Below are positions 2,447 through 60,571 of a stretch of 64,000 nucleotides of DNA, one piece after another (positions within the stretch are counted from its first letter, which is position 1; each line of letters starts with the position of its first letter). This stretch comes from a virus (lineage: Duplodnaviria > Heunggongvirae > Uroviricota > Caudoviricetes). The notes beneath the pieces are model-generated. The model was given only the letters and a program-made list of their open reading frames with translations. It was not told where the DNA came from and did not search any database. Location: the IMG/VR virus record IMGVR_UViG_2925908680_000001; one strand, given 5' to 3'. The translations under genes were made by a program, and so were the position numbers.

Positions 2447-5400
2447 TTATGGGTGCTGATAAAACGAACAACATAATGACACTATCCTCTGGTGTCTCAC
2501 AGCCGTTGCTTGCTGATGTTCAATATTTCGAACTCTATAGTAGTTCGGCTCTTAACAGAAAACTTAAAAATATTGTTTTGCCGGGCTTTTACTGTGGATT
2601 TGAACCAGTTCCCGGCACAGGGTTGAGCGTCCGTATAACTTCTGAAAACTCAGAAGGTAAAGGGGCTGCTTCAGTAGATGTAAATAATGTTCAGATATCC
2701 GTTCAGCAAATAGAAGATGTGACTGTCTCGGTAAAGGCTGGGGCTACCAACATTATTGTGCTAGAAGCCAATTTTGAACATGGTGTAAAAACGACACAGG
2801 TAGAGAGCGCATCTTCTGTCAGTGCTGCAAGAATTTACGCGCGTACGGACAATACTATTGGGCAGAATCAAATTGAATTATGTCGAGTTATCGTGCCTAA
2901 CGGCGCAACGGCTGTGACGAAAGAAATGATTGTGCTTAAATACCGGGTTAACCGTGCTGTTGGTGTCGAATTCTCTAATGAAATAAGCAGTACAGAAGAA
3001 AGAAAAGCGGCTACACCTCTGGCTGTCAAAACTCTCCATGATTTGGTTGATACAAAAGCTCCGCTCGATAGTCCACATCTGTCAGGTACGCCGACTTCGC
3101 CGACACCTGAACCCGGTACAAACAACACACAGATCGCAAATGCGGCCTTTGTCTATGCTGCTATAAATGCGCTTATCAATGGTGCTCCGGGAACGATGGA
3201 CACGCTGAAAGAAATAGCGGCTGCGATCAATAACGACCCGAATTTCAGCACAACTATCAACAATGCCCTGGCTCTTAAAGCTCCTTTGGCAAGCCCGGCG
3301 TTCACAGGTACGCCGACAGCACCTACGGCCTCACAAGGCACAAATAGCACGCAGATTGCAAATACAGCCTTTGTTAAGGCAGCTATAACGGCACTTATCA
3401 ACGGTGCACCTGGCACATTGGATACGCTGAAAGAAATAGCGGCTGCGATCAATAATGACCCGAATTTCAGCACAACTATCAACAATGCCCTGGCTCTTAA
3501 AGCTCCTTTGGCAAGCCCGGCGTTCACAGGTACGCCGACAGCACCTACGGCCTCACAAGGCACAAATAGCACGCAGATTGCAAATACAGCCTTTGTTAAG
3601 GCAGCTATAACGGCACTTATCAACGGTGCACCTGGCACATTGGATACGCTGAAAGAAATAGCGGCTGCGATCAATAATGACCCGAATTTCAGCACAACTA
3701 TCAACAATGCCCTGGCTCTTAAAGCTCCTTTGGCAAGCCCGGCGTTCACAGGTACGCCGACAGCACCTACGGCCTCACAAGGCACAAATAGCACGCAGAT
3801 TGCAAATACAGCCTTTGTTAAGGCAGCTATAACGGCACTTATCAACGGTGCACCTGGCACATTGGATACGCTGAAAGAAATAGCGGCTGCGATCAATAAT
3901 GACCCGAATTTCAGCACAACTATCAACAATGCCTTGGCTCTCAAAGCGCCTTTGGCAAGCCCTGCATTAACGGGTGTCCCTACTGCGCCGACCGCCGCAC
4001 AGGGCACAAATAATACGCAGATAGCTACGACCGCTTATGTAAGAGCTGCCATATCCGCATTGGTTGGTTCATCACCAGAAGCTCTTGATACCCTGAATGA
4101 GCTTGCCGCAGCACTTGGCAATGACCCGAACTTTGCGACAACAATGACAAATGCGCTGGCAGGCAAACAGCCTCTGGATGCAACTTTAACCGCGTTTGCT
4201 GCCCTTGCGACTGGTGCAAACAAACTGCCTTATTTCACCGGTAAGGATACGGTAGCGCAGACTGATTTAACGTCAGTCGGTCGCGATATTCTGGCTAAAA
4301 CAAGCACACTGGCCGTTATCCAATACCTTGGTTTAAGAGAACTCGGAACAAGCGGTGAAAAGATCCCCCTGTTGAGCACGGCTAACACATGGAGTGCACG
4401 CCAGACTTTCAACGGCGGGATCACCGGGGCGCTGACAGGGAATGCCGACACCGCGACGAAATTGAAAACAGCCATAAACATTAATGGCGTCAGGTTCGAT
4501 GGTTCTACGAACATTTCGATACCAACAATTACGTCTAGAGGACGCGTTACTGCGCTTACCGGTACAACGCAAGGTGCTGCTACTGGATTGCAGATGTATG
4601 AGGCATACAACAATGGCTACCCTTCCCCCTATGGCAATGTGCTTCACCTTAAAGGTGCCACCGCTGCTGGCGAAGGTGAGTTATTCATTGGCTGGAGTGG
4701 CACGAGCGGTGCCCATGCGCCCGTACATATCCGTTCGCGGCGGGATACTGATTCTGCCAACTGGTCTGAATGGGCGCAGGTCTATACGTCAAAAGATTCA
4801 GTTCCCGGCGTCAATGCCAAAGGGGATCAGGATACCTCCGGCAATGCTGCTACGGCGACCAGATTGCAGACGGCGCGCACTATTAACGGTGTCTCGTTTG
4901 ATGGTTCTAAAAACATTGAGCTAACGGCGGAAGATTTAAATCTTGAGCAAACCGTAGAATTAGCCGCTGGATCATTGCAGAAAAACCAGAACGGCGCAGA
5001 TATTCCAAACAAAGATAAATTTACGCAAACAATAGGTGCTTGCCGCTCTTTTCATGGTGCTATTAGCACAGGTGCAGGAAACTGGACGACGGCACAATTG
5101 ATTGAATGGCTGGATTCTCAAGGGGCATTCAATCACCCATACTGGATGTGCAAATGTTCATGGTCATACGGCAATAATAAAATTATTACCGATACTGGCT
5201 GTGGAACTATTCATCTTGCAGGTTGCGTTATTGAGGTTATGGGTAATAAAGGTGCCATGACCATCCGTGTAACCACCCCGAGCACTTCCAGCGGTGGCGG
5301 AACTACTAATGCACAATTTACTTATATAAACCATGGCGCAGATTACGCACCAGGCTGGCGGCGTGACTACAGTACCAAAAATCAGCAGCCTGCATTTGCT

Positions 5401-18677: not shown

Positions 18678-18879
18678 ATTAATTTGCTGTTTCTAAATCG
18701 GAATGTATGATCTGCATCATCGACAGAAGTCATCCATTGCTGAAATTTTTAGTTGATCTTCCATGTTTTCAGGCTTATATTCATGCCGTCGTAGCAAATT
18801 CTGCGACCAGGTTTGACAGCCTGAATGTTAGTGCGGACAACCGCAGATTTCCGATATTGCGGTATTTTTGTGTCCGTAA

Positions 18880-19020
18880 ACCGCGTTACGCCCGAATTAT
18901 GGTGGGGCGTGATGGGGAGGCTTCGGCCTGCTGGTTTCACTAACGCCAGTCTGTCAACCCTGTCACGTCCTGCCACCTGTTTGACAGCGGGTAGCAGGTT
19001 GTTAAACCTGTTAGTGAGGC
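18880..19020 (+). ncRNA. candidate C4-type antisense RNA / structured leader upstream of icd-like gene
   Basis: GC-rich hairpins in leader, position equivalent to P1 c4; not verified by covariance model. Confidence 0.3.
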
Positions 19021-19027
19021 CGTAACT

Positions 19028-19252
19028 ATGGTTAATGCCAATCCTTGCTCACGTCCAGAATTCATCTGGCGTTTCCACTCCCTGCAAAAACACTGCGATC
19101 ACTTCGCAATTGCCGCAACCGAAAAAGAAGCCCGTTCTCTGATCCCTGATCAGCATGGTGTTCTTACTGGTCGTTTCTCTACTTCCCCACAACCAAACAC
19201 TAATCCCTGGTATCGCAATATTACCAATCCCGGCATTGCGGAGGCACACTGA
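19028..19252 (+). CDS. Icd-like small protein (cell-division-inhibitor family candidate)
   Basis: 74 aa with EFIWRF motif; paralog at 58655..58870; directly upstream of antirepressor. Confidence 0.45.
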   Translation: MVNANPCSRPEFIWRFHSLQKHCDHFAIAATEKEARSLIPDQHGVLTGRFSTSPQPNTNPWYRNITNPGIAEAH

Positions 19253-19959
19253 TGGATATCTGCATTCTTGAAAAGCCATCAATGACCAGCATTGAGATCG
19301 CGGAGCTGGTGGGAAAACGTCATGACAATGTGAAGCGTACCATTGAAACATTAGCCGAATCCGGCGTTATTGTTCGTCCTCAAATTGAGGATGAACCAAA
19401 AATAGATGTAATGGGGCGTTCTCGATTAATTCAGGTGTTCCGATTTAGCGACGAGCAAGGCAAACGAGACAGCATCATTGTAGTCGCACAGCTTTGTCCT
19501 GAGTTTACTGCCCGGCTGGTGGACCGCTGGCGCGAACTGGAAGAACAAGTACGCCAGCCGTTGACCGAAATAGAGATGATCGCCGCAATGGCTGCAAATG
19601 CAGTTCAGCAGCAAAAGCGGCTTCATGCTGTTGAGTCAAAGGTTAGCCAGGTCGCTGAAACCGTCGAGCAAATCAAGAAGGGCAATATGCCAGATGGCTA
19701 CATTGGCTACCGCCAGCTGGCGGCGAAATGTGGCCTGACTGAAGCCAAATGTCGCAACCTGGTTAACGCTTACCGGATTCCCACCGATACACATGAGTTT
19801 TTAACTCCAGAGGGGGTATTGTCGCGTCGTTCCATCGTGGCCTTATCTCCCTTCATGAATGCTTTTAACCGGATGATGTCGGAGGCTGAACACCGAGGAA
19901 AACGCTGGTATCACCCCAAAATGGGGCAATTCCAGGTGATCGGTTGGGGAGGTGAGTGA
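19252..19959 (+). CDS. antirepressor (Ant/Rha-type N-terminal domain)
   Basis: 235 aa; MTSIEIAELVGKRHDNVKRTIE motif; ATGA coupling to icd-like gene. Confidence 0.6.
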   Translation: MDICILEKPSMTSIEIAELVGKRHDNVKRTIETLAESGVIVRPQIEDEPKIDVMGRSRLIQVFRFSDEQGKRDSIIVVAQLCPEFTARLVDRWRELEEQVRQPLTEIEMIAAMAANAVQQQKRLHAVESKVSQVAETVEQIKKGNMPDGYIGYRQLAAKCGLTEAKCRNLVNAYRIPTDTHEFLTPEGVLSRRSIVALSPFMNAFNRMMSEAEHRGKRWYHPKMGQFQVIGWGGE

Positions 19960-20156
19960 TGGACATCATGCAGGCGGTAAAAAAAATCAGGGAAGGACAG
20001 GCTGAAGTGTGCCGCCGTAAAGCATGGAGTGTTGGTGTATGGGCCTGGCCTGATAATTACTCTACTACCGGATGGTTTTGTATTAATGGACTCCAGATCC
20101 GGGAAGTTGATTTATCGACGGCTGATATAGTCGGTAATGATTGGATCGTGACTTGA
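19959..20156 (+). CDS. DUF2829 (Tad2-like) small protein
   Basis: 65 aa; W...W....DWIV pattern; homologous to C-terminus of second Ant (58870..59811); TGATG coupling. Confidence 0.5.
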   Translation: MDIMQAVKKIREGQAEVCRRKAWSVGVWAWPDNYSTTGWFCINGLQIREVDLSTADIVGNDWIVT

Positions 20157-20164
20157 AGCGTGAT

Positions 20165-20189
20165 GCCCCGGCCTGGCCGGGGCTTTTTT
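20165..20189 (+). terminator. rho-independent terminator gccccggc-ctg-gccggggc + TTTTTT
   Basis: 8-bp GC stem plus U-tract. Confidence 0.85.
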
Positions 20190-20674
20190 CATGCCTCATT
20201 AGTTGAGGTTGCTGCGTCTCCGACTGGTAACAGAGCGGTATTGCGTGGTTCGCCAGCAGGCCAGCGATAGCCAGACACTCTTGATGTTGGGAATGCGCGA
20301 ATATTAACCGCATCCCCCTGGTTCCCACCCAGGACAAGCAGATCGCCATTGGCGCGGCGTCCGACAACGAAGCCTACGTGCCCACCGCCTACACGGGTAA
20401 ATACAACGATACATCCGTATGCCGGTGTATCTAATTTCTCGCCCCAATCCAGATAGGATTTTGCCGACTCAAATCTTGTTGAGCGGATGCCTACACGTTC
20501 CAGCATTGCACCGACAAATGCTGCGCACCACGGCGTTTCATCGTCTTTAATTCCGCCGCGCTTGATGTCGCGCCAGAACTGAACGATTTCAGGGTTGTGT
20601 TTAGCGCCTTTTATTTCAGTCAGGCCAATGTGCTTACGGGCTTCAATTAGCCAGCGAGGTTCAATGTTTGCCAT
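20189..20674 (-). CDS. Cys/His peptidase-like protein (NlpC/P60-CHAP/TIGR02594-like)
   Basis: 161 aa; conserved WCAAFV ... GGHVGFVVG pattern. Confidence 0.5.
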   Translation of the reverse strand: MANIEPRWLIEARKHIGLTEIKGAKHNPEIVQFWRDIKRGGIKDDETPWCAAFVGAMLERVGIRSTRFESAKSYLDWGEKLDTPAYGCIVVFTRVGGGHVGFVVGRRANGDLLVLGGNQGDAVNIRAFPTSRVSGYRWPAGEPRNTALLPVGDAATSTNEA

Positions 20675-20825
20675 ATTTTTCTCCCGGTCATGGGTTAATA
20701 AGTAGGCAAACTATGGGGAGTATGTGATTTTGACGGTAGTATCGCCCCCCTGAAAATAACATTCTCCATACCCTCTCAACCGTACCGCATAGCGGAATTT
20801 TTTACGGTTTAGAGGGGGAAATCCT

Positions 20826-23800
20826 TTGGACAAACTACTTCATTCAATCAGTGAAGCCTCCAGCTTAGGCGAACTGATTGAAATTGTTAGTCGGTTGCAT
20901 AAATTACGTGCTGTTGCGACCTTTGGCGTCAGGAAAGCCGATGGCGTCAGTATTCAGAAAACACGCCGGGCAGCAAACAATGCCGCAGTAAATCTTCTTA
21001 ATTCCCTTCCGCCCGGCTTCGATGGGGCGAAATTAACTGACGAACAACGTCAGATTCTTGCTGGGTATACCGGTGAAGGCGGCCTGACAGATGGTGAGGG
21101 CAGCCAATACGAATACTACACGCCACAGTTTATGGCTGAAGGTATATGGGAGCTGTTTGCTGACTACGGTATTGATGGCGGTCACGTACTGGAACCATCA
21201 GCTGGCACGGGTATTTTCCAGGAGACAAAACGGCAGGGAATGATAATGACCAGCGCCGAGCTGTCTCCGATCTCCGGTCGAATCAACCAGCTGTTGCACC
21301 CGGAAGACGATGTGAACATTGGGGCGTTTGAGGCTCTGGCGGCGAAAGACGCAATGTATGACCACGCTGTTGGTAACGTACCGTTTGGCGAAGGCCGTTC
21401 CGGCGTTGCAGGGCTTGATCCGGCATATGCAAACGAGAAGAACGTTGGCAATTACTTTGTGCTGCGCACGATCGACAAGGTTAAACCTGGTGGGCTTATC
21501 GTATTGGTGGTGCCGAATGGCATGACTGATGGTACGAAATACAAAAAATTGCGCGATAAAGTTAGCCGTAAAGCGGAATTTTTGGGCGCGCATCGTATGC
21601 CTTCCGGTACGTTCAGTGAATCAGGTACAGATACCGTGGTGGACGTATGGGTATTGCGTAAACACCCGGAAGCCTTCCTGGAGATGATCCCCGATACGGA
21701 TGATTCGACGCTCAAATCGGCAAACGTCCTTTGGGATACCTTCCTCAAAGGGAAATGGTTTACAACCGAAGGGAAGCGATTTGTTTACGGCGACATGGAA
21801 CGTACCAGCTTCCGCAATACCCTGGTGGTGAAAAAAGACGGTCGTGTATCCAATGAGTCGATGAAAACCGCGCTATCTCGTCGCTTTGATAGTCGCATCA
21901 ATTGGGATTTGCTCGGCGTAACTACTCAGGCATGGCAGGGCGCGAAAGTGGGCGATAAACGCCTTGTAGGCGGTATCTGGCATGAGTTTGATGGTCTGAA
22001 ATGGGTTAAGGACACGACAACCAAATCCTCCGCGCTTGATGTAAGTCGATATGGTGTTTCGACGTTTGGCGATCTGCAGATCGCGTTCCAGTCAACAAAC
22101 GGGATTCTGGCTTTGTCATGGGACCAGATATCGGCGATCGCGTCCGACTATCCATCGGTTGTCAGTGATGAAGTGGCAGCAATGATTCGCTTTGCTGGCA
22201 AGCAGCGAGAAAAAGACAGGGAGCGCGTTATGCGCGGTGCACTGATAGGTCAGTTGATCAACAAGGCACTTGATTTGCGTAACCTGGGGGTGAACGTTGA
22301 TGACAAACTGGCAGATGCATCCCGCTTGGCGGCAGCAGAAGTTGCGAAGTATGGACCACCGCACGCGATTAAGCTGAATGGGCTTGCTGAAGCTGGCGCT
22401 AAAAACTGGATGACGTTCACTGGCAATGTGAAACAGGATGGTTCCACTTCTGACCTTCTGGCAGGGCGACTTGATGTAACGGATGGTGCTGCCGGTATTG
22501 ACTTTACGCGTCCTGAACAAGTGATAGCACATCTTTTTAGTGATGTAGCCCTTAATCCTATAACGCTGGGCGACTTTCGTGAGGCGTTTGCTGGTGAACT
22601 GCCAGAGGACGACGACGCGGTCCTTGAATACCTGGCGAAATTTGATGATATCGCTATTGATGGGTATGGCTGTCTGCTGCCGATGGACCGCGCCACCAGC
22701 GGCGATGTTGCAACCAAAACAGCACTGCTGGTGGGCTGGCGTGATGCGTCAACAGGTGAGCAGAAAGCGAACTTTGAGCGTCAGTTGGCGAAAATCGAAG
22801 AGAAACGCATTTTCACGCCACTAAATAAAGTCACCGTTAATCTGAATGCCCGCTGGCTGGATCGCCGCTTGATAAAAGAGTTCCTGGCAGAGCAGGGCTA
22901 TGACGAGTTTAAGTACACTGAACCTGATCTGAAGGTCGTCGATGGCATTCTGGTATCTCCGGACGATTACGAAGGTAAGGACGGGGTATTTACCGGCTAT
23001 CAGCTACGAACCGTAAACGGCAAAAACGGGAATGAGTTCAAGAAGGCCAACAATAAAGACGGCTTCCTGAACCAGTTAGAAAACTACCTGAACGGTGTTA
23101 AACCGCGTGGGCAGAACGCTAACGAGTACCTGGATAAAATTGCTCAACTGGAAGTTAGCTTTAACGACTGGTTACGCACCCACCCGCAGGCGGATCAGAT
23201 AGCCCGTGACTATAACGACGCATTCAATGGTTTCATTCCGTTCACACATTCTGACGCACCGCTTGGCCTGGAAGGGATTAGTGGAAAGCGCATTCCTCTG
23301 ACTTATCAGAATGAAGAAGTTCGGCGCTTGTCAGAAGATGGGCGTGGCATCATGGGATTTGGTACCGGGCTGGGTAAAACCACGACCGCGCTTGCGCTTG
23401 AGGCGTATAACTTCGAAACAGGTCGCACTAAACGCACGTGTATTGTTGTTCCGAAGGCGGTTTATCAGAACTGGTATCACGAGGCACAGAGTTTCTACAG
23501 TGCTGATGCCTTCGCCAATATGATGTTTATCGGTTTGGATGAAGTTCGTGATGACAGCGGAAATATTCTGACCGCGCCGGTGCTTGATGAAAATGGCGAA
23601 CCACGCCTCGACAGTAACGGGCAGCCTCTTACCAGAAATGTTGTGAAAGAGTCCTCCAGCGCCGTTATCGTTCAGCGTATGAACATGATCCCGTCGTCAA
23701 ATTGGCGAACGGTCATCATGACAAAAGAACAATTCGCGTCTATCCCGCTACGAGAAAAAACCATCGAGGAGAACTCACAGCAAGCTGTCTTTAATGCTGT

Positions 23801-26800
23801 GGAAATGGGGCGTCTTGACCTGGCGTCCGGTAAACACCGTGATGCGCAGAAGAAGAACAAGATTAAGGATCAGGCCGCGAATACCGGTACAACGAAGAAG
23901 CAGAATATCCCGTACTTTGAGGATATGAACTTCGATAGCGTGATTGCCGACGAGGGGCATAACTACCGCAACTCCTTTAATGCCGGGCGTGAAGCGGGAC
24001 AACTGGCATATTTGCCTAACCCGGCAGTATCCAAGATGGCCCGCGACATGGCTGTAAAAGCTGCGTACATGATGAAACGCAACAACGGGCGTGGTGTAGT
24101 CATGCTGACGGCAACTCCGCTGGTGAACAGTCCGATTGATGCCTTCAACATGCTGTCTACTGTCATTCCGCAGGAAGAGTGGATGCGCATGGGCATCATT
24201 ACGCCTGATGATTTCGTTCGTGTGTTTGGCAAAACAGCCACAGTTCAGGTCCAGAAAATTTCCGGGGAAGTGGAAGAGAAGCAGGGGCTGGTGGGCTTCC
24301 AGAACCTTGACGGCCTGCGTGGTATTTTCCATCGTTGGACCACTCTGAAGACTGCTGCAGATGTCGGAGCGACGGTTAAAATTCCCGACATCATCGAGAA
24401 CACCTTGCAGATCCCGATGACAGGGGAGCAGGAGACTGCTTATGAAGAGCTTCGTAAGCGTGCTCAGGAGTTAAGTCGCAATGATGAGCTGACAGTCGAT
24501 GAAAACGGGCATATCACTAACGACAAACCGGATGATTTCATTTTCTCCATCATCCGTGACATGGACAAGGTTGCTATAGACCCGGATCTGTATGCCAGTG
24601 CGATTACATTCCAGTTCCCCGTTGAGCTTGCAGACCAGGTAAAAGCTATTGCTGATGCCTTGCCAAAAGTAGCTGGCGGTAAAGTGGCAGATGATGTTGA
24701 TGAGGCCGAGGAAGACGGCGCTGGCGGGCTGGTCAGTACGCGTACCAGCAAGGTAGTGAAGACCGCTTTTAGTGAACATCCGACGCATGTTGAAATACGT
24801 GCCAGCATTGAACTGGAAGCTGAAATACTGAAGGCCATTGCGGCTGCCGGCATTGATATGCAGCAGGTATCGCACCCCATCCCGCCGAAGTATGCCGCGC
24901 TGATCGAAAATCTTCGTGAAGGTCTGAAGAACGGTAAGCAGATCGTCTTTATTGATGAAAAAGCCCAGCACCAGAAGCTGCGCCGTATTATCGCCAGTGC
25001 ACTGCAAATGCCGGAGCAGGAGATTGGCATTATCAATGCGACGACAGTTAGCCAGGCTGGTGGCATCAAGCTGAAGAAGGTGAATAAGCCGACCGAACCT
25101 ACTCCAAACAAAAACGGTGAATACAAAGAAGGGGCATGGGAAACCTACTACAGCAAACTTGCCCAATATGAGGATTATCTCTCCGCTAAAAATGATGCTG
25201 GCCTTGAGGGCATGGAAGGTATTGCCGCCGACTATAACGAAGGTCGCACGCGCATCATAATCTGTAACAAGAAGGCTGAAGTAGGTATTAACCTGCACAT
25301 CGGGACAACCGATATCCACCACCTGACACTACCCTGGACACCAGCCAGTATCGACCAACGAAATGGGCGCGGTGCGCGCGTAGGTTCACCGCAAGAAAAG
25401 GTCAATGTTCACTACTATTGTGGCAAAGGCACATTCGACGACTTCCGTCTGGATACGCTGAAACGTAAGAAAGACTGGATCAAGATGGTGATGACCTCCG
25501 ACATGTCAGAGATCGCCAATGGTGATGCGGATGATGCTGATGAACGCGCCATTATGCTGGCGGCAAACCCGGAAGAACGCCGCGCAATCATGGCTCGCCA
25601 GGCGCAAGAGCGTGAAGAACGTCTGAAACTGAAAGCACAGCGCGAGGCCAACAATGCTCTCGATATCTACCTGAAAGCGGCAAACGCCGCCGGAAAAGAT
25701 ATCGGCATGATGGAGACAGAACTGAAAAGCGCGATGGAACAGATAGAGTATTACCAGCGAAATCTTGACGACCTGATAAAAGCGGGTACGAACAGGAATG
25801 GGCAAAAATACGCACTTGAGCAGTTGAGTAGCTACAGAAAACGTGCGCGGGTGCTGCGGTTTGCGATCACCAGGGCAAAAGACGCGGATACCATAATGAA
25901 ACGCTCTCGTGGTGATGTGGAGCGCGCTATTAAGTCTGGTGTGCTGGATATCAGTATCGATGTTATTCAGAACCCACAGGAATATATGCGCACTGACAAG
26001 AATATCCTGTTGCATAAAGGTAGTTATTACCGTGCAGTCATTGATGATCGCGAAACAACAGCGATTGTCCGGGTGGAAAAAATTGACGGTGAAAAAGCAC
26101 AATACCTCTGCCGTATCGCCTGGTTGGATAGAGCAAGTCGTTACGCTCGAGCACCGGGGTCAATCGTTACATTGCCGTTTGACTCTGTGATTGAAGCGGT
26201 AACTTTTGAAGAGGGGGTAGCTGAATCGCGCGCAACGGCTGCGCGTGGTGTTCAGTGCCACCAGCTATCAACAATACTTACTCGCGATCAGTTCTATGAT
26301 GCTATTCGCAATGGGGTAATGAATGTTATTGCTGGTAAACCTGGTAATGCATGGGGCGGTGGGTCAGCGATTAAATACTGGGCATATCGCACAGATGATG
26401 GTCAGATCGCGCTGTCATCGGCCTATGATGGCGTGATAGGCCAAAAAATCGGGCGAGCATCGGATATAGCACCTGAGCGATGGATATATCCTGATGGCAA
26501 CGACGAGGCGCTGAAGCGTGAAGTGGCAAAAATACAAGCCAGTGATAACCCGCTGAATATCGTGGACGGCGAGGGATTCCTCCAGGCATTGTATGGGTAT
26601 GATTACATCCAGGGAATGCAGTCATGGGGCGCACAGGCAACGATGGATGATGTTGCCCAGGAGTTCGAAAACTGGATGGCTGGGCGTGGTCTGTCAGGTC
26701 GTTCGCTTAATAAAGTCACTTCTGAAGATATTCTTAGCTTGTTCCGCAAACCGTCCGGAGAAGGTCTGGAATCATTCTGGAGGACCGTGCTGGCATACCG

Positions 26801-27662
26801 TGTATTCCAGGGCAGGATGAAAGCCTTTAGCAATATCGATGATATTGAACGGATGTTTAATCAGGTCAAGATAGCGAAAATTAAGACGAAGATCGAAAAA
26901 ACACGTTCTGCGCTGGTGGCCTGGCGCGATGCATTGTTTGAGCAATATAAATCACTCAGTGATGCAGATGGATGGGCGGCATTGGAACAGCTGGCGAATA
27001 ATGGGGTAGATGGAGCGAAACTAGCCATTGTTCAGGCTGATAACCCCCTGGAATCACCGGCAGCACAGTGGATTAAGGTGGGGGCTGTCATCAATGCATT
27101 TGATGAAAAATACATTAGTAAGGACGATTTTGCTGATGCTGTTTCTGTTAATCGCCTGGTAGAAATGGCTACCCGTCGCGCCCGTGAGTTGAAAGACGGC
27201 GACTATGTGAATGAGTTGCCGGATGCGCTCAAATCGGCAACGTGGCAGGACTATGTATCGCTGAAAAACGGCGGGGCCACTGAATCAGAGATCGCGGAAA
27301 GGCTTGAGCAGGCTGAAAGCAAAAGAGAAGAGCAGGCGGCAGTGGCTGAAGCCAGAGCTGATGAAGCGGCGAATGATGACTATATCATTGTGGTTAATGA
27401 TAAGCCGATTCGCGCTAAGGCGCGTGTTCGCGGGCGCTGGTGGAGCGTCAGCGAGGACGTTGGCGCGGTTTATCTCATTGCCGACCAACCAGGTTCCTCG
27501 ACAATACGGAACGCCAAAGACGCGATTAAGAAGATTGGCGGGCGTTTCTGGAATTTTGAAGCAAACCCGGTTGCTGATGTGAACTTTGACCGTCCTGCAT
27601 GGATGGTATCTACGCGTTACTCGGTAGATGAACTGCGTAAAATAATCGCCGATGCGGCCTAA
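20826..27662 (+). CDS. darB: DarB-like antirestriction protein: N6-adenine methyltransferase + SF2 helicase fusion
   Basis: 2278 aa; SAM motif EPSAGTGIF, catalytic NVPFG, Walker A GFGTGLGKTT, DEGH box, helicase motif VI QRNGRGARVG; strong SD before TTG start. Confidence 0.75.
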   Translation: MDKLLHSISEASSLGELIEIVSRLHKLRAVATFGVRKADGVSIQKTRRAANNAAVNLLNSLPPGFDGAKLTDEQRQILAGYTGEGGLTDGEGSQYEYYTPQFMAEGIWELFADYGIDGGHVLEPSAGTGIFQETKRQGMIMTSAELSPISGRINQLLHPEDDVNIGAFEALAAKDAMYDHAVGNVPFGEGRSGVAGLDPAYANEKNVGNYFVLRTIDKVKPGGLIVLVVPNGMTDGTKYKKLRDKVSRKAEFLGAHRMPSGTFSESGTDTVVDVWVLRKHPEAFLEMIPDTDDSTLKSANVLWDTFLKGKWFTTEGKRFVYGDMERTSFRNTLVVKKDGRVSNESMKTALSRRFDSRINWDLLGVTTQAWQGAKVGDKRLVGGIWHEFDGLKWVKDTTTKSSALDVSRYGVSTFGDLQIAFQSTNGILALSWDQISAIASDYPSVVSDEVAAMIRFAGKQREKDRERVMRGALIGQLINKALDLRNLGVNVDDKLADASRLAAAEVAKYGPPHAIKLNGLAEAGAKNWMTFTGNVKQDGSTSDLLAGRLDVTDGAAGIDFTRPEQVIAHLFSDVALNPITLGDFREAFAGELPEDDDAVLEYLAKFDDIAIDGYGCLLPMDRATSGDVATKTALLVGWRDASTGEQKANFERQLAKIEEKRIFTPLNKVTVNLNARWLDRRLIKEFLAEQGYDEFKYTEPDLKVVDGILVSPDDYEGKDGVFTGYQLRTVNGKNGNEFKKANNKDGFLNQLENYLNGVKPRGQNANEYLDKIAQLEVSFNDWLRTHPQADQIARDYNDAFNGFIPFTHSDAPLGLEGISGKRIPLTYQNEEVRRLSEDGRGIMGFGTGLGKTTTALALEAYNFETGRTKRTCIVVPKAVYQNWYHEAQSFYSADAFANMMFIGLDEVRDDSGNILTAPVLDENGEPRLDSNGQPLTRNVVKESSSAVIVQRMNMIPSSNWRTVIMTKEQFASIPLREKTIEENSQQAVFNAVEMGRLDLASGKHRDAQKKNKIKDQAANTGTTKKQNIPYFEDMNFDSVIADEGHNYRNSFNAGREAGQLAYLPNPAVSKMARDMAVKAAYMMKRNNGRGVVMLTATPLVNSPIDAFNMLSTVIPQEEWMRMGIITPDDFVRVFGKTATVQVQKISGEVEEKQGLVGFQNLDGLRGIFHRWTTLKTAADVGATVKIPDIIENTLQIPMTGEQETAYEELRKRAQELSRNDELTVDENGHITNDKPDDFIFSIIRDMDKVAIDPDLYASAITFQFPVELADQVKAIADALPKVAGGKVADDVDEAEEDGAGGLVSTRTSKVVKTAFSEHPTHVEIRASIELEAEILKAIAAAGIDMQQVSHPIPPKYAALIENLREGLKNGKQIVFIDEKAQHQKLRRIIASALQMPEQEIGIINATTVSQAGGIKLKKVNKPTEPTPNKNGEYKEGAWETYYSKLAQYEDYLSAKNDAGLEGMEGIAADYNEGRTRIIICNKKAEVGINLHIGTTDIHHLTLPWTPASIDQRNGRGARVGSPQEKVNVHYYCGKGTFDDFRLDTLKRKKDWIKMVMTSDMSEIANGDADDADERAIMLAANPEERRAIMARQAQEREERLKLKAQREANNALDIYLKAANAAGKDIGMMETELKSAMEQIEYYQRNLDDLIKAGTNRNGQKYALEQLSSYRKRARVLRFAITRAKDADTIMKRSRGDVERAIKSGVLDISIDVIQNPQEYMRTDKNILLHKGSYYRAVIDDRETTAIVRVEKIDGEKAQYLCRIAWLDRASRYARAPGSIVTLPFDSVIEAVTFEEGVAESRATAARGVQCHQLSTILTRDQFYDAIRNGVMNVIAGKPGNAWGGGSAIKYWAYRTDDGQIALSSAYDGVIGQKIGRASDIAPERWIYPDGNDEALKREVAKIQASDNPLNIVDGEGFLQALYGYDYIQGMQSWGAQATMDDVAQEFENWMAGRGLSGRSLNKVTSEDILSLFRKPSGEGLESFWRTVLAYRVFQGRMKAFSNIDDIERMFNQVKIAKIKTKIEKTRSALVAWRDALFEQYKSLSDADGWAALEQLANNGVDGAKLAIVQADNPLESPAAQWIKVGAVINAFDEKYISKDDFADAVSVNRLVEMATRRARELKDGDYVNELPDALKSATWQDYVSLKNGGATESEIAERLEQAESKREEQAAVAEARADEAANDDYIIVVNDKPIRAKARVRGRWWSVSEDVGAVYLIADQPGSSTIRNAKDAIKKIGGRFWNFEANPVADVNFDRPAWMVSTRYSVDELRKIIADAA

Positions 27663-57264: not shown

Positions 57265-57843
57265 ATGCAGAAACAGAGCTATTGGGAGAAACAGAGACAA
57301 AAAGCCATGCAAAAATTGGCTGACCCAGCCTGGCGAGAGGAACAAAGGGCAAAGCGCCTTCAACAAGCTCAACGCCAGCAGCAGCGAGCGAGAGAAAAAG
57401 CCGCATCGCCTGAATATCGGCAAAAGAAAATTGAAAAAGCAAAGCAATATGAACAGCGGAGAAAAGATAAAGCTGTATCCGCTCCGTCCAAAAAAACACG
57501 CACGTCACGCGGCCTGAAAGGCAGATCACTCACAGCCGATGAACGCCGGATACAGACCGCTATCGGTGCTCTCCCCTGCATTGCCTGCCATATTCACGGG
57601 CAACATAGCCCAGTGGTATCCCTGCACCATATCTTCGGGAGAACGGCAGAGAACGCACATAGATATGTCCTCCCTTTGTGTAAATGGCACCACCAGTACG
57701 CAGCGCCAGCCGAGGTCCGAGAACAATATCCCTGGCTGGTCCCTGTTCATGCTGACGGAAAAATAGGCGGAAAAGCAGATTTCATGCGGCACAATGCCGA
57801 TGAAATGACGTTGTATCAGATGGCGATTGAATTGATAAATTAG
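57265..57843 (+). CDS. Ref-like HNH endonuclease (recombination enhancement function family)
   Basis: 192 aa; Lys/Arg/Gln-rich N-terminal 90 aa then CIACHIHGQH...HHIFG...LCKWHH HNH core. Confidence 0.6.
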   Translation: MQKQSYWEKQRQKAMQKLADPAWREEQRAKRLQQAQRQQQRAREKAASPEYRQKKIEKAKQYEQRRKDKAVSAPSKKTRTSRGLKGRSLTADERRIQTAIGALPCIACHIHGQHSPVVSLHHIFGRTAENAHRYVLPLCKWHHQYAAPAEVREQYPWLVPVHADGKIGGKADFMRHNADEMTLYQMAIELIN

Positions 57844-58173: not shown

Positions 58174-58341
58174 AATGACCGTTCGCTACCTCAACTTTCA
58201 AATCCAGAACATCACTGGCGGTTGCTATGACTGGTTTGTCACTCTCGGAAAAGAAGTGATCACCGGGAAGCTGGATGAAGTGAAAGCTAAAGCAATGGCC
58301 TACGCCTGCAAGCAAGCCCGGAAGAAATCCGCCAAAGCATA
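58174..58341 (+). CDS. 55-aa small ORF
   Basis: SD-like GGGGGTG before ATG; ends before terminator; below size cutoff. Confidence 0.25.
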
Positions 58342-58446
58342 AAATACTGACTGTTGCGCCCTGGCATTATCGTGGGGTATATTTCTACGGCACCTTAGAA
58401 AAACGGGTGCCGGGATTGGAACCCCGGATAATGCAAAAGGCGACAC

Positions 58447-58470
58447 AGACGCCGAAAGCGTCTTTTTTTG
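58447..58470 (+). terminator. rho-independent terminator agacgc-cgaaa-gcgtct + TTTTTTT
   Basis: Classic. Confidence 0.85.
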
Positions 58471-58499
58471 TGTCATGCCATCGCACAGCCATACGTAGC

Positions 58500-58640
58500 G
58501 TTTAGCTCAGAGATCAATGGTAGTGCTGGCTGGGCTGCCGAAAGGCAGGCCGGTTCCCTTTTGCGCCGGTAGTTCCAACCCAGTCAGTGCTACCGCCATT
58601 GAGATTGGAACCTCACGCGGTAGCTCCTTAAATTAGCAAA
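58500..58640 (+). ncRNA. candidate C4-type antisense RNA / structured leader upstream of second icd-like gene
   Basis: Multiple GC hairpins in 140-nt leader; position as P1 c4. Confidence 0.3.
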
Positions 58641-58654
58641 AGGAGGCTGCCAAT

Positions 58655-58870
58655 ATGGCTACTATCCCTACCCCAACTCATTCTGAATTTATCTGGCGTT
58701 TCTATTCCTGCCAAAAACACCTGTATATCTGCGTCATGGCTGCTACCGAAGCAGAAGCTCGTTCATACCTTCCTGAAGAACCCTGCATTTTTGCCGCACG
58801 CTTCACTCTTGATGCGATGGAGATCCTAAATTACTGGAATCTGCCAATGAACTGCGTGGAGGTGCACTGA
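58655..58870 (+). CDS. Icd-like small protein, paralog of 19028..19252
   Basis: 71 aa; SEFIWRFYSCQKH motif. Confidence 0.45.
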   Translation: MATIPTPTHSEFIWRFYSCQKHLYICVMAATEAEARSYLPEEPCIFAARFTLDAMEILNYWNLPMNCVEVH

Positions 58871-59811
58871 TGAATCTGTCCATCTCTCAAAAAGCGACAA
58901 TGACCAGTATTGAGATCGCGGAACTGGTAGGTAAGCGTCATGATAATGTGAAGCGTACCATTGAAGTATTAACTAAAGGTGGTGTCATTCAATTTCCTCA
59001 AATTGAGGAAATTGAAAATAAACAATCAGTTGGCCCTCGTCGATTTTCCAAGGCTTACATATTTGAAGGCGAACAAGGAAAACGAGACAGCATCATTGTC
59101 GTCGCGCAGCTCTCTCCGGAATTCACCGCCCGGCTGGTGGACCGCTGGCGCGAACTGGAGAATGCCCGGGTACAGTTAAAATCAAAAGCCGAAATTCTGG
59201 CTGAAATGGCGCAAATGCATCTTGAGCATGAACGCCGGATCAACGCCGTAAATGCCCAGGTAGCCGAGGTATCAGCACAAGTATCGATGGTCGCTGAAAC
59301 ACTCGAGCAAATCAAGAAAGGCAATATTCCGGAAGGCTACATTGGCTACCGCCAGCTGGCGGCGAAATGTGGCCTGACTGAAGCCAAATGTCGCAACCTG
59401 GTTAACGCTTTCCGGATTCCCACCGATACGCATGAGTTTTTAACTCCAGATGGTTTGCTTGCGCGACGCTCCATTGTGGCCCTGGTCCCCTTCCGGAAAG
59501 CCTTTAAGCAGGTGATGTCGGAGGCAGAACCACGCAATAAACGCTGGTATCATCCAAAGATGGGGATGTTTCAGGCAATCCACCATCCTGTGCCTGAAAG
59601 CCCAAAGGATAATCTGTCACTACATACCGTCAGAGAGAAGATCAGGACTGGATACGCAACAGTGTGTCGTCGTTCTTCCTGGCCTGAAGGTATATGGGTG
59701 TGGCCCGAAGGTGGATCACGAAAGCACTGGCGCACCATCCGTGACGGGAAAATCCATGCTATTGATTTAGCTCCAGAGGATGTTATTGCTATGGACTGGA
59801 TTGTTAGTTAA
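58870..59811 (+). CDS. antirepressor (Ant/Rha-type) fused to C-terminal DUF2829 (Tad2-like) domain
   Basis: 313 aa; N-terminus MTSIEIAELVGKRHDNVKRTIE; C-terminal 70 aa homologous to separate ORF 19959..20156. Confidence 0.6.
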   Translation: MNLSISQKATMTSIEIAELVGKRHDNVKRTIEVLTKGGVIQFPQIEEIENKQSVGPRRFSKAYIFEGEQGKRDSIIVVAQLSPEFTARLVDRWRELENARVQLKSKAEILAEMAQMHLEHERRINAVNAQVAEVSAQVSMVAETLEQIKKGNIPEGYIGYRQLAAKCGLTEAKCRNLVNAFRIPTDTHEFLTPDGLLARRSIVALVPFRKAFKQVMSEAEPRNKRWYHPKMGMFQAIHHPVPESPKDNLSLHTVREKIRTGYATVCRRSSWPEGIWVWPEGGSRKHWRTIRDGKIHAIDLAPEDVIAMDWIVS

Positions 59812-59818
59812 ATGCTGC

Positions 59819-59839
59819 ATCCCCGGCGACGCCGGGGAT
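59819..59839 (+). terminator. hairpin atccccggc-gac-gccggggat
   Basis: 9-bp GC stem after ant stop; weak U-tract. Confidence 0.55.
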
Positions 59840-59870
59840 TTAACTGCCAAATAATCGGATTATCCGCACG

Positions 59871-60182
59871 ATGAAAAAAATAGATTTCACTTATTCTGCC
59901 GCCACACTTGAGCGGCGCTTCACCCTCATTAGAGAGTTGGAACTGTCAAAAGTCTGGTATCAAATCCTACTGGATGAAGAGTTTTCACTGATGGTTATAG
60001 CAGAAAAATTGGCTATGCCTAATGATCGGCACAAGGTCATAGCCAGCCTCGATCTGGTGACAAACAGATACTGGGAAACAGAGGAACTACATGAGGCGGG
60101 AGTAATTCGTGACCTGATGGAGAATTCCGTTCCCCGCCGCTATCGTGCAGGGAACGGCATCTCCGTGGTTAAAGGTGTTTAA
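59871..60182 (+). CDS. hypothetical protein
   Basis: 103 aa ORF. Confidence 0.35.
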   Translation: MKKIDFTYSAATLERRFTLIRELELSKVWYQILLDEEFSLMVIAEKLAMPNDRHKVIASLDLVTNRYWETEELHEAGVIRDLMENSVPRRYRAGNGISVVKGV

Positions 60183-60571
60183 AGCTCACCTGCGCGCTGT
60201 TTTTCAAGCACAGATTTAACATTTGGCGCTTTCCCTTTAAAAGAATGGAAAGTGCCACATTTTTCTGTTTTAACCTCGCGCAGAGCTTCGCCATCGGCGT
60301 TCTGCCATTGATGGGATAATGTCATATCACCGCGAGAAGGAACATCCAGCGAGTACAGCGTGTAAGTTCCCCCCATCTCCGCATACTCCTGGAACACATA
60401 GCTCATTACGTCAGATTCAGTTTTTCGGTGTGCGTTATCAACCTTATTCCCATTCAGAAATATGGCATCTGGATAGATTTTTATATCAAACCTACCGCAC
60501 TTAACTTGTAAATTTCCGGCGCTCGCGATCAAAGGGAAAGACGCCAGTAAAGCAATAGCCAATCTTTTCAA
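60179..60571 (-). CDS. secreted protein (signal peptide)
   Basis: 130 aa; MKRLAIALLASFPLIASA leader. Confidence 0.45.
   Translation of the reverse strand: MKRLAIALLASFPLIASAGNLQVKCGRFDIKIYPDAIFLNGNKVDNAHRKTESDVMSYVFQEYAEMGGTYTLYSLDVPSRGDMTLSHQWQNADGEALREVKTEKCGTFHSFKGKAPNVKSVLEKQRAGEL

What the first reader, a model, noticed from the sequence alone, without database searches (positions are those of the whole stretch)
58500..59811. Second icd/ant module with Ant-DUF2829 fusion
Copy 2 encodes a 313-aa Ant whose last 70 residues are the DUF2829 domain found free-standing after copy 1. It is preceded by a strong terminator (58447) and a 140-nt GC-rich leader that could encode the antisense regulator.
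Basis: partly seen in the sequence, partly recalled or inferred. Interest (0 to 1): 0.5.

Follow-up and report, generated by a model that had tools for sequence, protein, structure and literature searches.

The report
Second antisense-RNA-gated antirepressor module, Tad2-fold tail
This is a real, conserved second copy of the P1-type "immunity I" switch of a D6-like phage-plasmid (decoy RNA, C4 antisense RNA, icd, antirepressor), and its antirepressor ends in a small domain with the fold of the phage anti-defence protein Tad2, a domain found only under C4 control in every relative examined.

Summary
The window is a D6-like phage-plasmid with two immI modules.

**Module layout (58390-59811)**
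- IsrK-like small RNA with its own terminator.
- icd, then a 313-aa Rha-type Ant. The two are coupled by a TGATG overlap.

**RNA control**
- The two C4 recognition segments pair with sites in the IsrK-like RNA and with sites over the icd ribosome-binding site.
- All three partners co-vary across relatives: 9-10 of 15 pairs are compensatory.
- The segments do not match copy 1, so the two modules are orthogonal.

**The C-terminal domain**
- Ant residues ~248-313 are homologous to the 65-aa ORF coupled to ant in copy 1 (43% identity).
- Pfam Tad2-like/DUF2829 is not reached at the curated threshold. Transitive hits and a predicted fold (top 20 PDB matches all Tad2) place the domain as a minimal, divergent Tad2-fold relative.
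- The fusion is no artefact. It is intact in D6, in over 100 protein clusters and in roughly 100 plasmids, with dN/dS 0.07-0.15.
- In other phage-plasmids the small gene sits alone directly behind C4.

What the domain does (sponge, or Ant accessory) is unresolved.

The parts
58354..58383 (+). Candidate sigma-70 promoter of the module: -35 TTGCGC at 58354-58359, 18-nt spacer, -10 TATATT at 58378-58383. It is placed so that transcription would start at about 58390.
   Evidence: Read directly from the sequence. The stretch is identical in the divergent relative L003. It was not picked up by the consensus scan because only 3 of 6 bases match in the -35 hexamer. Inferred.
58390..58472 (+). IsrK-like small RNA, equivalent to the a1/b1 element of P1-type immI. 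It has two hairpins, a single-stranded stretch and its own intrinsic terminator (stem 58447-58463, then a U-run).
   Evidence: Rfam RF01394 isrK, 62.5 bits against a gathering score of 50, full length. Terminator scan. Fold with a1 in a hairpin loop. isrK and c4-a1b1 models hit the same place in L006.
58416..58422 (+). Site a1 (TTGGAAC), complementary to C4 segment a'.
   Evidence: 7 of 7 pairs kept in 6 loci, 4 with compensatory changes.
58433..58440 (+). Site b1 (GCAAAAGG), complementary to C4 loop b'.
58513..58600 (+). C4 antisense RNA gene, copy 2. Recognition loop b' CCUUUUGC is at 58557-58564. Single-stranded a' GUUCCAA is at 58572-58578.
   Evidence: Rfam RF01695, 76.7 bits against a gathering score of 45. 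MFE -46.4 kcal/mol, z -5.46. Covariation with targets.
58605..58611 (+). Site a2 (TTGGAAC) in the icd leader.
58636..58646 (+). Site b2 (GCAAAAGG, 58636-58643), overlapping the icd Shine-Dalgarno sequence AAGGAGG (58640-58646).
58655..58870 (+). icd-like gene (71 aa). Its stop overlaps the ant start (TGATG).
   Evidence: NCBIfam NF033153 phage_ICD_like, 49.4 bits against a cut-off of 25. phrog_1426. ORF.
58870..59811 (+). ant (313 aa). Domains: Rha-type winged-helix N-terminus, long helix, central alpha/beta domain, 13-residue linker, Tad2-fold C-terminal domain.
   Evidence: Pfam Phage_pRha, 37.3 bits against a cut-off of 29.9. phrog_63 'anti-repressor Ant', E 2e-61, covering residues 2-313. 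Annotated 'anti-repressor Ant' in phage D6. Low-confidence full-length model.
59620..59808 (+). Tad2-fold (DUF2829-like) domain, Ant residues 251-313, preceded by the linker at residues 238-250 (59581-59619).
   Evidence: 43% identity to the free ORF of copy 1. phrog_7385. Transitive Pfam link. AF2 model pLDDT 92.7 in the best model. Foldseek top 20 PDB hits are all Tad2. BFVD hits are Tad2-like/DUF2829. dN/dS 0.07-0.15.
59821..59837 (+). G+C-rich hairpin (CCCCGGCG A CGCCGGGG) just after the ant stop, with a weak T-run. Possible end of the transcription unit.
   Evidence: Read from the sequence. Not reported by the terminator scan. Inferred.
18775..20156 (+). Copy 1, for comparison: c4-a1b1 18775-18827, C4 18895-18980, icd 19028-19252, ant 19252-19959 (235 aa), free Tad2-fold ORF 19959-20156 (65 aa from the ATG). 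The ant stop overlaps that ATG as TGATG, and GGAGG lies upstream.

Best explanation
The region is the second, independently controlled immI-type switch of a D6-like phage-plasmid.

**Transcription.** Transcription starts near 58390. Most transcripts stop at the terminator at 58447-58472 and give an IsrK-like small RNA of about 80 nt. Read-through transcripts carry C4, icd and ant. Read-through is inferred from the Gifsy-1 isrK locus.

**Repression.** C4 is released from the read-through transcript (inferred from P1). It pairs through loop b' and segment a' with b2/a2 in the icd leader. Because b2 covers the Shine-Dalgarno sequence, icd is not translated. Because ant starts inside the icd stop (TGATG), ant stays off as well. 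This is the lysogenic, 'immune' state.

**Derepression.** The IsrK-like RNA carries the same two sequences (a1/b1). It therefore competes for C4 or remodels the leader, which favours icd-ant expression. This step is inferred from the published trans-activation by IsrK.

**Orthogonality.** The recognition sequences differ from those of copy 1, so each C4 controls only its own operon (shown by complementarity).

**Output.** The products are Icd (a division inhibitor in P1) and a Rha-type antirepressor. The antirepressor carries a minimal Tad2-fold domain at its C-terminus. The same domain is a separate, translationally coupled gene in copy 1, and it is the only gene behind C4 in other phage-plasmids.

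**Function of the domain.** I take it to be an autonomous unit that must be silent in the lysogen and is made at lytic onset or on infection. Most likely (about 0.45) it is a Tad2-type oligomeric binder of a nucleotide-derived immune signal, that is, an anti-defence sponge delivered together with Ant. Nearly as likely (about 0.35) it is an accessory that oligomerises Ant or helps it act on the repressor.

The confidence given below is for the RNA-gated icd-ant module, not for the sponge function.
For: **Identity of the element**
- 90.6% identity to phage D6, where the genes are annotated Icd-like and Ant. 99.9% identity to an E. coli plasmid.

**RNA genes**
- C4 scores 76.7 bits and isrK 62.5 bits.
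- The terminator is found by the scan.
- Folds are consistent with the models.

**Pairing, own versus other copy (kcal/mol)**

| C4 copy and segment | Own sites | Other copy's sites |
|---|---|---|
| C4-2 b' | -12.4 and -13.1 | -6.1 and -6.3 |
| C4-1 b' | -11.7 and -8.7 | -2.0 and -3.4 |

**Three-way covariation over six loci**
- a1:a' plus b1:b' are 96.5% paired, with 9 of 15 pairs compensatory and 0 of 500 shuffles reaching this. Slid controls give 31-56%.
- a':a2 plus b':b2 are 93.3% paired, with 10 of 15 pairs compensatory.
- In leaders about 95% identical (RCS47, JL22, D6), the differences at the recognition sites are compensatory in all three partners.

**Coding parts**
- Icd-like. Ant, PHROG 63. 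TGATG overlap.

**Published function of homologous parts**
- c4 RNA represses Ant synthesis in P1 (PMC8546580).
- Short IsrK expressed in trans raises orf45-anrP translation more than 100-fold, and a processed RNA lies downstream of IsrK (PMC4825925).

**The domain**
- Homology to the free ORF.
- Transitive link: P0124 matches our profile at E 3.7e-10 and PF11195 at 23.9 bits. P0128 matches our profile at E 8.4e-4 and PF11195 at 37.4 bits.
- Tad2 fold.
- Purifying selection.
- The fused frame is kept in more than 100 clusters and about 100 plasmids.
- Solo genes lie directly behind c4-a1b1 and C4, with b' pairing over their ribosome-binding site, in L008 and L009.
- C4 lies upstream in every further locus that has enough upstream sequence.
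Against: - No expression data exist. Processing of C4, read-through of the terminator and the promoter are all inferred.
- The -35 hexamer is poor, and no repressor operator was found.
- 'Antirepressor' is a name carried by homology and position. The N-terminus is a Rha-type DNA-binding fold, and no binding to the C1-type repressor has been shown.
- Against the sponge reading:
  - Pfam's threshold is not reached.
  - The PDB sequence match to HgmTad2 is not significant (E 0.17).
  - Only 2 (fused) or 3 (free ORF) of the 7 gcADPR-contact residues named for HgmTad2 are kept (with PMC10680739).
  - The insertion that forms the cyclic-dinucleotide pocket is absent.
  - Four of the five AF2 models of the domain had low confidence.
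- A sponge normally works at high copy number. Fusion to a regulator is unusual for one.
Confidence: 0.8

Rival explanations
1. The Tad2-fold domain is not an anti-defence sponge. It is a working part of the antirepressor: an oligomerisation or repressor-binding accessory. It would be comparable to the Ant1/Ant2 pair of P1, made as a second polypeptide in copy 1 and as a fused tail in copy 2.
For: - The pair of arrangements, split (TGATG-coupled) and fused, argues that Ant and the small protein act together.
- The core 103-313 including the tail stays 98% identical when the N-terminal DNA-binding domain is swapped for an ORF6N domain in L014.
- Most named ligand contacts of HgmTad2 are not kept.
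- Tad2 proteins are obligate oligomers (PMC10680739), so the fold can serve as an assembly module.
- In P1, Ant1 and Ant2 act as a complex (PMC8546580).
Against: - In L008 and L009 the small gene stands alone behind C4, with no icd or ant in the unit.
- No precedent is known to me for a Tad2 fold used as a protein-binding module.
- The family-wide motif residues are kept: W24 and D57, equivalent to W21 and D93 of HgmTad2.
Confidence: 0.35
2. The fused domain is a ligand sensor. Binding of a host immune nucleotide signal switches the antirepressor on, so that the prophage is induced when the cell's abortive-infection signalling fires.
For: - The fusion is a small-molecule-binding fold joined to a lysis-lysogeny regulator.
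- Tad2 relatives bind many different immune signals (PMC12393519).
- The domain and its linker are under strong purifying selection.
Against: - There is no direct evidence.
- The free and solo forms cannot gate Ant in cis.
- The pocket residues are poorly conserved.
- Ant is not translated in the lysogen if C4 control works, so there would be no sensor present to respond.
Confidence: 0.1
3. Copy 2 is a decaying duplicate, or the 313-aa frame is an assembly or frameshift artefact.
For: - A degraded, frameshifted version exists in one plasmid (L015).
- In L005 an IS element has cut ant off after icd.
Against: - The same 313-aa frame occurs in phage D6 at 90.6% DNA identity, in more than 100 clusters at 75-98% identity and in about 100 plasmids.
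- dN/dS is 0.07-0.15 at dS 0.5-1.7.
- The RNA recognition sites change only in a compensatory way.
Confidence: 0.02

Closest known systems
immI operon of phages P1 and P7 (a1/b1 - c4 - a2/b2 - icd - ant1/2)
   Same: - Same order of parts on one strand.
- The C4 RNA meets the Rfam model.
- Two short recognition segments are matched by one pair of sites upstream and one pair over the icd ribosome-binding site.
- icd and ant are translationally coupled.
- Specificity alleles differ by a few compensatory bases, as in P1/P7 heteroimmunity.
   Different: - Two orthogonal modules sit in one genome.
- Ant has a Rha-type N-terminus and a Tad2-fold tail, instead of the KilAC-type Ant seen in P1-like plasmids such as L004 and RCS47.
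- No kilA-repL follows.
- No P1 C1 operator consensus is present.
isrK-orf45-anrP locus of Salmonella prophage Gifsy-1 (PMC4825925)
   Same: - A small RNA that meets the Rfam isrK model, with its own terminator.
- It is followed by a structured RNA, a short ORF and an antirepressor-like gene.
- Published data show terminator read-through, trans-activation of translation by the short RNA, and translational coupling.
   Different: - The element here is on a plasmid prophage.
- The link of IsrK to the C4 loops is shown here by covariation. It is not described in that paper, which compares the locus to P4 seqA/CI instead.
- Homology of anrP and orf45 to Ant and Icd here was not tested.
Tad2 / DUF2829 family (SPO1 Tad2, ModTad2, HgmTad2 = AcrIIA7)
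   Same: - Predicted fold: an N-terminal helix, a five-stranded antiparallel sheet, and a short helix before the last strand.
- The top 20 PDB matches are all Tad2, with TM 0.65-0.72.
- The family motifs R-x-x-W...G and D-x-x-x-x-D-W are kept.
- Relatives of 65-66 aa exist in BFVD.
   Different: - Below Pfam's threshold, or no hit at all.
- Lacks the insertion between strands 2 and 5 that makes the cyclic-dinucleotide pocket in HgmTad2.
- Most named gcADPR contacts are changed.
- Placed under antisense-RNA control, and in one paralog fused to an antirepressor.
P4 immunity (seqA - CI RNA - seqC)
   Same: A processed small RNA from the leader pairs with complementary sites on both sides of its own gene in the same transcript. 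The authors of PMC4825925 call IsrK a structural homologue of P4 SeqA RNA.
   Different: - P4 CI acts by causing premature transcription termination.
- Here the downstream site covers a ribosome-binding site, as in P1.

Membership tests
C4 antisense RNA (Rfam RF01695) | Covariance-model score at or above the curated gathering score. | tested here: met
   76.7 bits against 45, full length 1-87, at 58513-58600.
C4 antisense RNA (Rfam RF01695) | Two exposed segments (a', b') are complementary to a site pair upstream (a1/b1) and to a site pair downstream (a2/b2). b2 lies over the ribosome-binding site of the first ORF. | tested here: met
   Duplex energies. Site table. Covariation: 96.5% and 93.3% paired, 9 and 10 of 15 pairs compensatory. 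b2 58636-43 overlaps SD 58640-46.
C4 antisense RNA (Rfam RF01695) | Released by processing from the operon transcript. Represses ant in trans. | not testable with these tools
   Needs Northern or RNA-seq and reporter assays.
IsrK small RNA (Rfam RF01394) | Covariance-model score at or above the gathering score, and an intrinsic terminator of its own. | tested here: met
   62.5 bits against 50 at 58390-58468. Terminator 58447-58463 plus T-run.
IsrK small RNA (Rfam RF01394) | Hfq binding. Trans-activation of translation of the downstream short ORF and antirepressor. | not testable with these tools
   Known for Gifsy-1 only (PMC4825925).
P1-type immI operon | An Icd-like first ORF is translationally coupled to the following antirepressor gene. 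| tested here: met
   NF033153, 49.4 bits against 25. TGATG overlap at 58868-58872.
P1-type immI operon | The second gene product is an antirepressor that inactivates the C1-type repressor. | tested here: inconclusive
   phrog_63 'anti-repressor Ant', E 2e-61, and the D6 annotation. However, the only Pfam domain is Rha. Repressor binding cannot be tested here.
Tad2-like / DUF2829 (Pfam PF11195) | Score at or above Pfam's gathering score (25 bits). | tested here: not met
   Fused tail: no hit even at E 10. Free ORF of copy 1: 15.1 bits, E 0.034. Relatives: P0124 23.9 bits, P0125 14 bits. Only P0128 passes, at 37.4 bits.
Tad2-like / DUF2829 (Pfam PF11195) | Tad2 fold: helix, five-stranded antiparallel sheet, short helix before the last strand. 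| tested here: met
   AF2 best model pLDDT 92.7, but the other four models score 48-66. Foldseek PDB ranks 1-20 are all Tad2, probability 1.00, TM 0.65-0.72, and the next hit has E 0.6. BFVD top hits are named Tad2-like/DUF2829.
Tad2-like / DUF2829 (Pfam PF11195) | Residues that contact gcADPR in HgmTad2 (W21, N22, W87, L88, S90, T92, D93). | tested here: inconclusive
   Mapped through a weak alignment (E 0.17, with PMC10680739). W and D are kept in both copies. S90 is kept only in the free ORF. The other four are changed.
Tad2-like / DUF2829 (Pfam PF11195) | Tetramer that sequesters an immune signalling nucleotide and blocks Thoeris, CBASS or Pycsar. | not testable with these tools
   Needs purified protein and phage assays.

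The most novel reading that the evidence does not exclude
A Tad2-fold domain has been recruited into the lysis-lysogeny switch. It is always kept under C4 antisense-RNA control, and in this paralog it is welded to the antirepressor. In this reading it lets the prophage read a host immune nucleotide signal, so that antirepressor activity, and hence induction, is gated by abortive-infection signalling. It would not act merely as a sponge.
Probability: 0.1. Interest if true: 0.85.

Novelty: new variant of a known kind. Interest (0 to 1): 0.5.

Why it matters
The module itself is a textbook P1-type switch. Its duplication in D6-like plasmids has already been noted in print (PMC6799933).

Three things seen here are not in the annotations I could reach:

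1. **IsrK and a1/b1 are the same element.** The IsrK small RNA and the a1/b1 element of C4 systems coincide, and the element co-evolves base for base with the C4 loops. This gives a simple reading of the published IsrK trans-activation: competition for C4. Rfam keeps isrK outside the C4 clan.
2. **One phage-plasmid carries two orthogonal C4 specificities.** Specificity alleles are shared with P1-like plasmids. D6 and JL22 have identical sites. This predicts cross-immunity between different phage-plasmid families.
3. **A fold so far known from anti-defence sponges is a regular cargo of C4-gated units.** It occurs fused to Ant, coupled to Ant, or alone.

If the domain is a sponge, this is a case of an anti-defence gene silenced in the lysogen by an antisense RNA. 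If it is part of the antirepressor, it is a new use of the Tad2 fold. Either result is directly testable with standard assays.

Tried and rejected
- **Repressor operator.** The P1 C1 consensus ATTGCTCTAATAAATTT with up to 3 mismatches gives no match in the window. No 14-mer with 2 or fewer mismatches is shared between the two module upstream regions.
- **Word-indexed homology searches with the short proteins.** These were nearly empty: 3 hits for the 66-aa ORF, and only itself for P0128. I therefore could not assemble a Tad2 alignment for a profile-profile comparison.
- **PDB sequence searches.** The profile of our family gives no significant hit: none at all with A2, and HgmTad2 only at E 0.17 with A3. 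P0128 alone gives nothing relevant.
- **Scan of genome contigs.** One spurious 21-residue match in an alphaproteobacterial MAG. The A3 alignment was too divergent to make patterns.
- **Fold library afdb50.** Not available.
- **Papers not held.** The D6 genome paper (PMC5800970) and the P1 genome paper (PMC523184) are not in the library. I could not check what their authors say about the two modules.
- **Whole-sequence RNAduplex of C4 against the leaders.** Uninformative, because it ignores the C4 fold. It was replaced by loop-only duplexes.
- **RNA-binding role like AcrIIA7-tracrRNA (PMC13133391).** Considered and not pursued. By my own count of charged residues, the fused tail is about +3 and the free ORF about -1, so there is no consistently basic surface.
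- **L015.** A frameshifted remnant, which gave nothing.
Full report
**What the window is.** The stretch 58300-60200 is 90.6% identical to Escherichia phage D6. There the corresponding genes are annotated as an Icd-like protein and 'anti-repressor Ant' (orf83, orf82). It is 99.9% identical to a 97-kb E. coli plasmid, and 449 plasmid records match. The window is therefore a D6-like, P1-type phage-plasmid. [quoted passage not shown]

**Checking the observation.**
- ORF 58870-59811 encodes 313 aa. It is preceded by a 71-aa ORF (58655-58870) whose stop overlaps its start as TGATG.
- The 71-aa protein meets the NCBIfam Icd-like model (49.4 bits, cut-off 25).
- The 313-aa protein has a Pfam Rha domain at its N-terminus (37.3 bits, cut-off 29.9). 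It matches PHROG 63 'anti-repressor Ant' over residues 2-313 (E 2e-61).
- Copy 1 is at 18775-20156, with the same order of parts: a 235-aa Ant followed by a small ORF.
- Ant2 residues 1-237 are 65% identical to Ant1.
- Ant2 residues 256-313 are 43% identical to the small ORF (E 9e-18), and the two align without gaps over 66 columns.
- At the DNA level, copy 1 has GGAGG, then the ant stop overlapping the ATG of the small ORF (TGATG). Copy 2 has 17 extra bases and no stop, which produces the linker HHPVPESPKDNLS.
- The terminator at 58447-58463 is found by the scan.
- The leader 58500-58640 has 53.9% G+C against 47.7% for the window.

**The RNA part.** Rfam finds a C4 antisense RNA at 58513-58600 (76.7 bits) and an isrK small RNA at 58390-58468 (62.5 bits). 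Copy 1 has C4 (68.8 bits) preceded by the c4-a1b1 element. In the Klebsiella plasmid L006 the isrK and c4-a1b1 models hit overlapping positions. The two Rfam families therefore describe one element, namely the a1/b1 sites followed by a terminator.

- C4-2 folds as the family does (MFE -46.4 kcal/mol, z -5.46).
- Its hairpin loop b' (CCUUUUGC, 58557-58564) and the single-stranded a' (GUUCCAA, 58572-58578) are complementary to two pairs of sites.
  - In the IsrK-like RNA: b1 (58433-58440) and a1 (58416-58422).
  - In the icd leader: b2 (58636-58643) and a2 (58605-58611).
- b2 overlaps the Shine-Dalgarno sequence AAGGAGG, 9 nt before the ATG.
- Loop-only duplex energies favour the cognate sites in both copies. 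For b' they are -12.4 and -13.1 against -6.1 and -6.3 kcal/mol in copy 2, and -11.7 and -8.7 against -2.0 and -3.4 in copy 1. The two modules are therefore orthogonal.

**Covariation.** Six loci were aligned: this window, D6, a divergent D6-like plasmid (L003), a P1-like plasmid (L004), a Klebsiella linear-plasmid prophage (L006) and a Salmonella plasmid (L007). They carry four different a alleles. L006 aside (its b sites align poorly), they carry four different b alleles.

| Pairing tested | Cells paired | Compensatory pairs | Shuffles reaching this | Slid controls |
|---|---|---|---|---|
| a1:a' plus b1:b' | 96.5% | 9 of 15 | 0 of 500 | 31-56% |
| a':a2 plus b':b2 | 93.3% | 10 of 15 | 0 of 500 | 28-53% |

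The unpaired cells come from the poorly aligned b sites of L006. In leaders that are about 95% identical (RCS47, JL22, D6), the differences at the a and b sites are compensatory in all three partners:

| Element | a allele | b allele |
|---|---|---|
| Window | GGAAC | GCAAAAGG |
| D6 and JL22 | GAGAC | GCAAAAGG |
| RCS47 | GAGAC | GUCAAAGG |
| L003 | GGUCU | GUCAAAGG |

 This is the P1/P7 heteroimmunity principle, here with several alleles shared between D6-like and P1-like elements.

**How the switch most likely works.**
- *Shown here:* the parts, their order, the complementarity and its evolutionary maintenance, and the overlap of b2 with the ribosome-binding site and of the icd stop with the ant start.
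- *Taken from the literature:* c4 RNA represses Ant synthesis in P1 (PMC8546580). In Gifsy-1, part of the isrK transcripts read through the IsrK terminator to give the orf45-anrP mRNA. Short IsrK in trans raises its translation more than 100-fold. anrP is translated by coupling to orf45. A processed RNA (STnc1160) lies downstream of IsrK (PMC4825925).
- *Inferred:* in the lysogen C4-2 blocks icd translation, and through coupling ant. The IsrK-like RNA, which carries the same sites, titrates C4 or remodels the leader.
- A candidate promoter (TTGCGC, 18 nt, TATATT, 58354-58383) would start the RNA at about 58390. It is conserved in L003 but is weak by consensus. I found no repressor operator.

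**The C-terminal domain.**

*Sequence.* Pfam does not place it at its own threshold. A full HMMER scan of 1.84 billion representatives with a profile of the two window copies found only eight proteins, so the subfamily is very small.
- P0124 matches our profile at E 3.7e-10 and PF11195 at 23.9 bits.
- P0128 matches our profile at E 8.4e-4 and PF11195 at 37.4 bits, above the cut-off.

*Structure.* The AF2 model of the tail has pLDDT 92.7 in the best model, but only 48-66 in the other four. It has a helix, a five-stranded antiparallel sheet and a short helix before the last strand. This is the Tad2 core described in PMC10680739.
- The 20 best Foldseek matches in the PDB are all Tad2 chains (SPO1 and Myroides), with probability 1.00 and TM 0.65-0.72, followed by a sharp drop.
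- In BFVD the top matches are named Tad2-like or DUF2829. They include proteins of 65-66 aa and multi-domain proteins of 170-270 aa.
- The best PDB sequence match of the family profile is HgmTad2/AcrIIA7, at a non-significant E 0.17.

*Ligand contacts.* The HgmTad2 alignment is co-linear. It maps W21 and D93, two of the contacts whose mutation lowers gcADPR binding, onto the invariant W24 and D57. The other five named contacts are changed, except S90 in the free ORF. The strand 2-5 insertion that builds the cyclic-dinucleotide pocket is missing.

I therefore call it a minimal, divergent Tad2-fold relative, not a certified member of PF11195.

**The fusion is real and selected.**
- More than 100 clusters of 301-314 aa at 75-98% identity carry the tail.
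- Of 123 plasmid records with the domain, about 100 have the fused form, usually together with the free form.
- Among 50,697 phage records, only D6 has it.
- Between the window, D6, L002 and L003, and leaving out the near-identical pair window/L002, the tail has dN/dS 0.07-0.15 at dS 0.5-1.7. This is lower than in residues 1-237, which give 0.17-0.44.
- In L014 the N-terminal 120 residues are replaced by an ORF6N domain, while residues 103-313 stay 98% identical.
- The full-length model is of low confidence (pLDDT 70.8, pTM 0.32). It suggests a winged helix, a long helix (83-149), a second alpha/beta domain and the tail.

**A context that changes the picture.** The two closest relatives outside D6-like plasmids are P0124 and P0125. 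They lie on 88-90-kb contigs that look like other phage-plasmids, carrying ParM/StbA partition genes, Rz-like spanin genes and a Big_2-domain protein. Each small gene stands directly behind c4-a1b1 and C4, with no icd or ant, and each is followed by a terminator-like hairpin and T-run.

The b' loop of those C4 RNAs pairs over the ribosome-binding region of the small gene (-10.7 and -15.6 kcal/mol). In further viral contigs that have enough upstream sequence, C4 is again present upstream.

In every context I could examine, the domain is C4-controlled, in one of three arrangements: coupled to ant, fused to ant, or alone. This argues for an autonomous function that must be off in the lysogen.

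A sponge fits, because silencing it would preserve the host's defences for the lysogen. A small antirepressor-type function fits as well. The split/fused pair argues that it works with Ant. I put the sponge at about 0.45, the Ant accessory at about 0.35, a ligand-gated Ant at about 0.1, and other functions for the rest.

**Comparison with what is known, and verdict.**
- The module is a member of the P1/P7 immI kind. Its leader is of the Gifsy-1 IsrK type.
- Extra icd-ant modules between pacB and c1 in P1-like plasmids are described (PMC6906374). They use the same leader with a KilAC-type Ant.
- Not in the annotations or papers I could read: the identity of IsrK with the a1/b1 element shown by covariation, the two orthogonal specificities in one element, and the Tad2-fold domain as a regular C4-gated cargo.
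- I rate the finding as a new variant of a known kind, with moderate interest.

Noticed in passing
window about 58517-58636 (equivalent to L002 1938-2057); also L006 1507-1674: NCBI records annotate a 39-55-aa 'ash family protein' CDS exactly on top of the C4 RNA gene, on the same strand. This looks like an RNA gene mis-called as protein, and it recurs across hundreds of plasmid records.
   Followed up: partly
L006 1470-1558: The Rfam families isrK (RF01394, no clan) and c4-a1b1 (RF03163, clan CL00128) hit overlapping positions. They appear to model the same element. isrK would belong in the C4 clan.
   Followed up: partly
L001 (D6) 4091-4375, and L013 (JL22) about 1796-2100: Phage D6 copy 2 and the P1-like phage JL22 have identical a and b recognition sites (a GAGAC, b GCAAAAGG). 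This window differs from them at a only. Cross-immunity between D6-like and P1-like phage-plasmids is therefore predicted.
   Followed up: partly
L007 1492-2181 (Salmonella plasmid pRM11060-2): One isrK-like element is followed by two C4 genes in tandem (1743-1830 and 2094-2181) on a 291-kb conjugative plasmid, next to an AntA/AntB antirepressor gene.
   Followed up: no
L005 1964-3261: In a P1-like plasmid, an IS4-family element (ISVsa5; Rfam RNA-OUT at 2097-2166) is inserted just after icd and has removed ant.
   Followed up: no
L014 803-1801 (plasmid pS143-4): A third Ant architecture. An ORF6N N-terminal domain is joined to the same 103-313 core with the Tad2-fold tail (98% identical), behind a c4-a1b1/C4 leader. 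That plasmid has three copies of the domain.
   Followed up: partly
window 3118-4022: Tandem repeat of 222 bp, 4.1 copies, 94% matches. The unit would be an in-frame 74-codon repeat, presumably inside a structural gene.
   Followed up: no
window 20189-27662: Next to copy 1 lie a CHAP-domain protein (20189-20674, minus strand) and a 2278-aa protein with N6-methylase, SNF2 and helicase domains (20826-27662). By size and domains it resembles the P1 DarB anti-restriction protein; that resemblance is recalled from memory and was not tested.
   Followed up: partly
window 32097-33580: Four tRNA genes in a cluster (Rfam tRNA, 41.9-70 bits).
   Followed up: no
window 57265-57843: A 192-aa ORF upstream of the module corresponds to the gene annotated 'Ref-like RecA filament endonuclease' in D6.
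   Followed up: no
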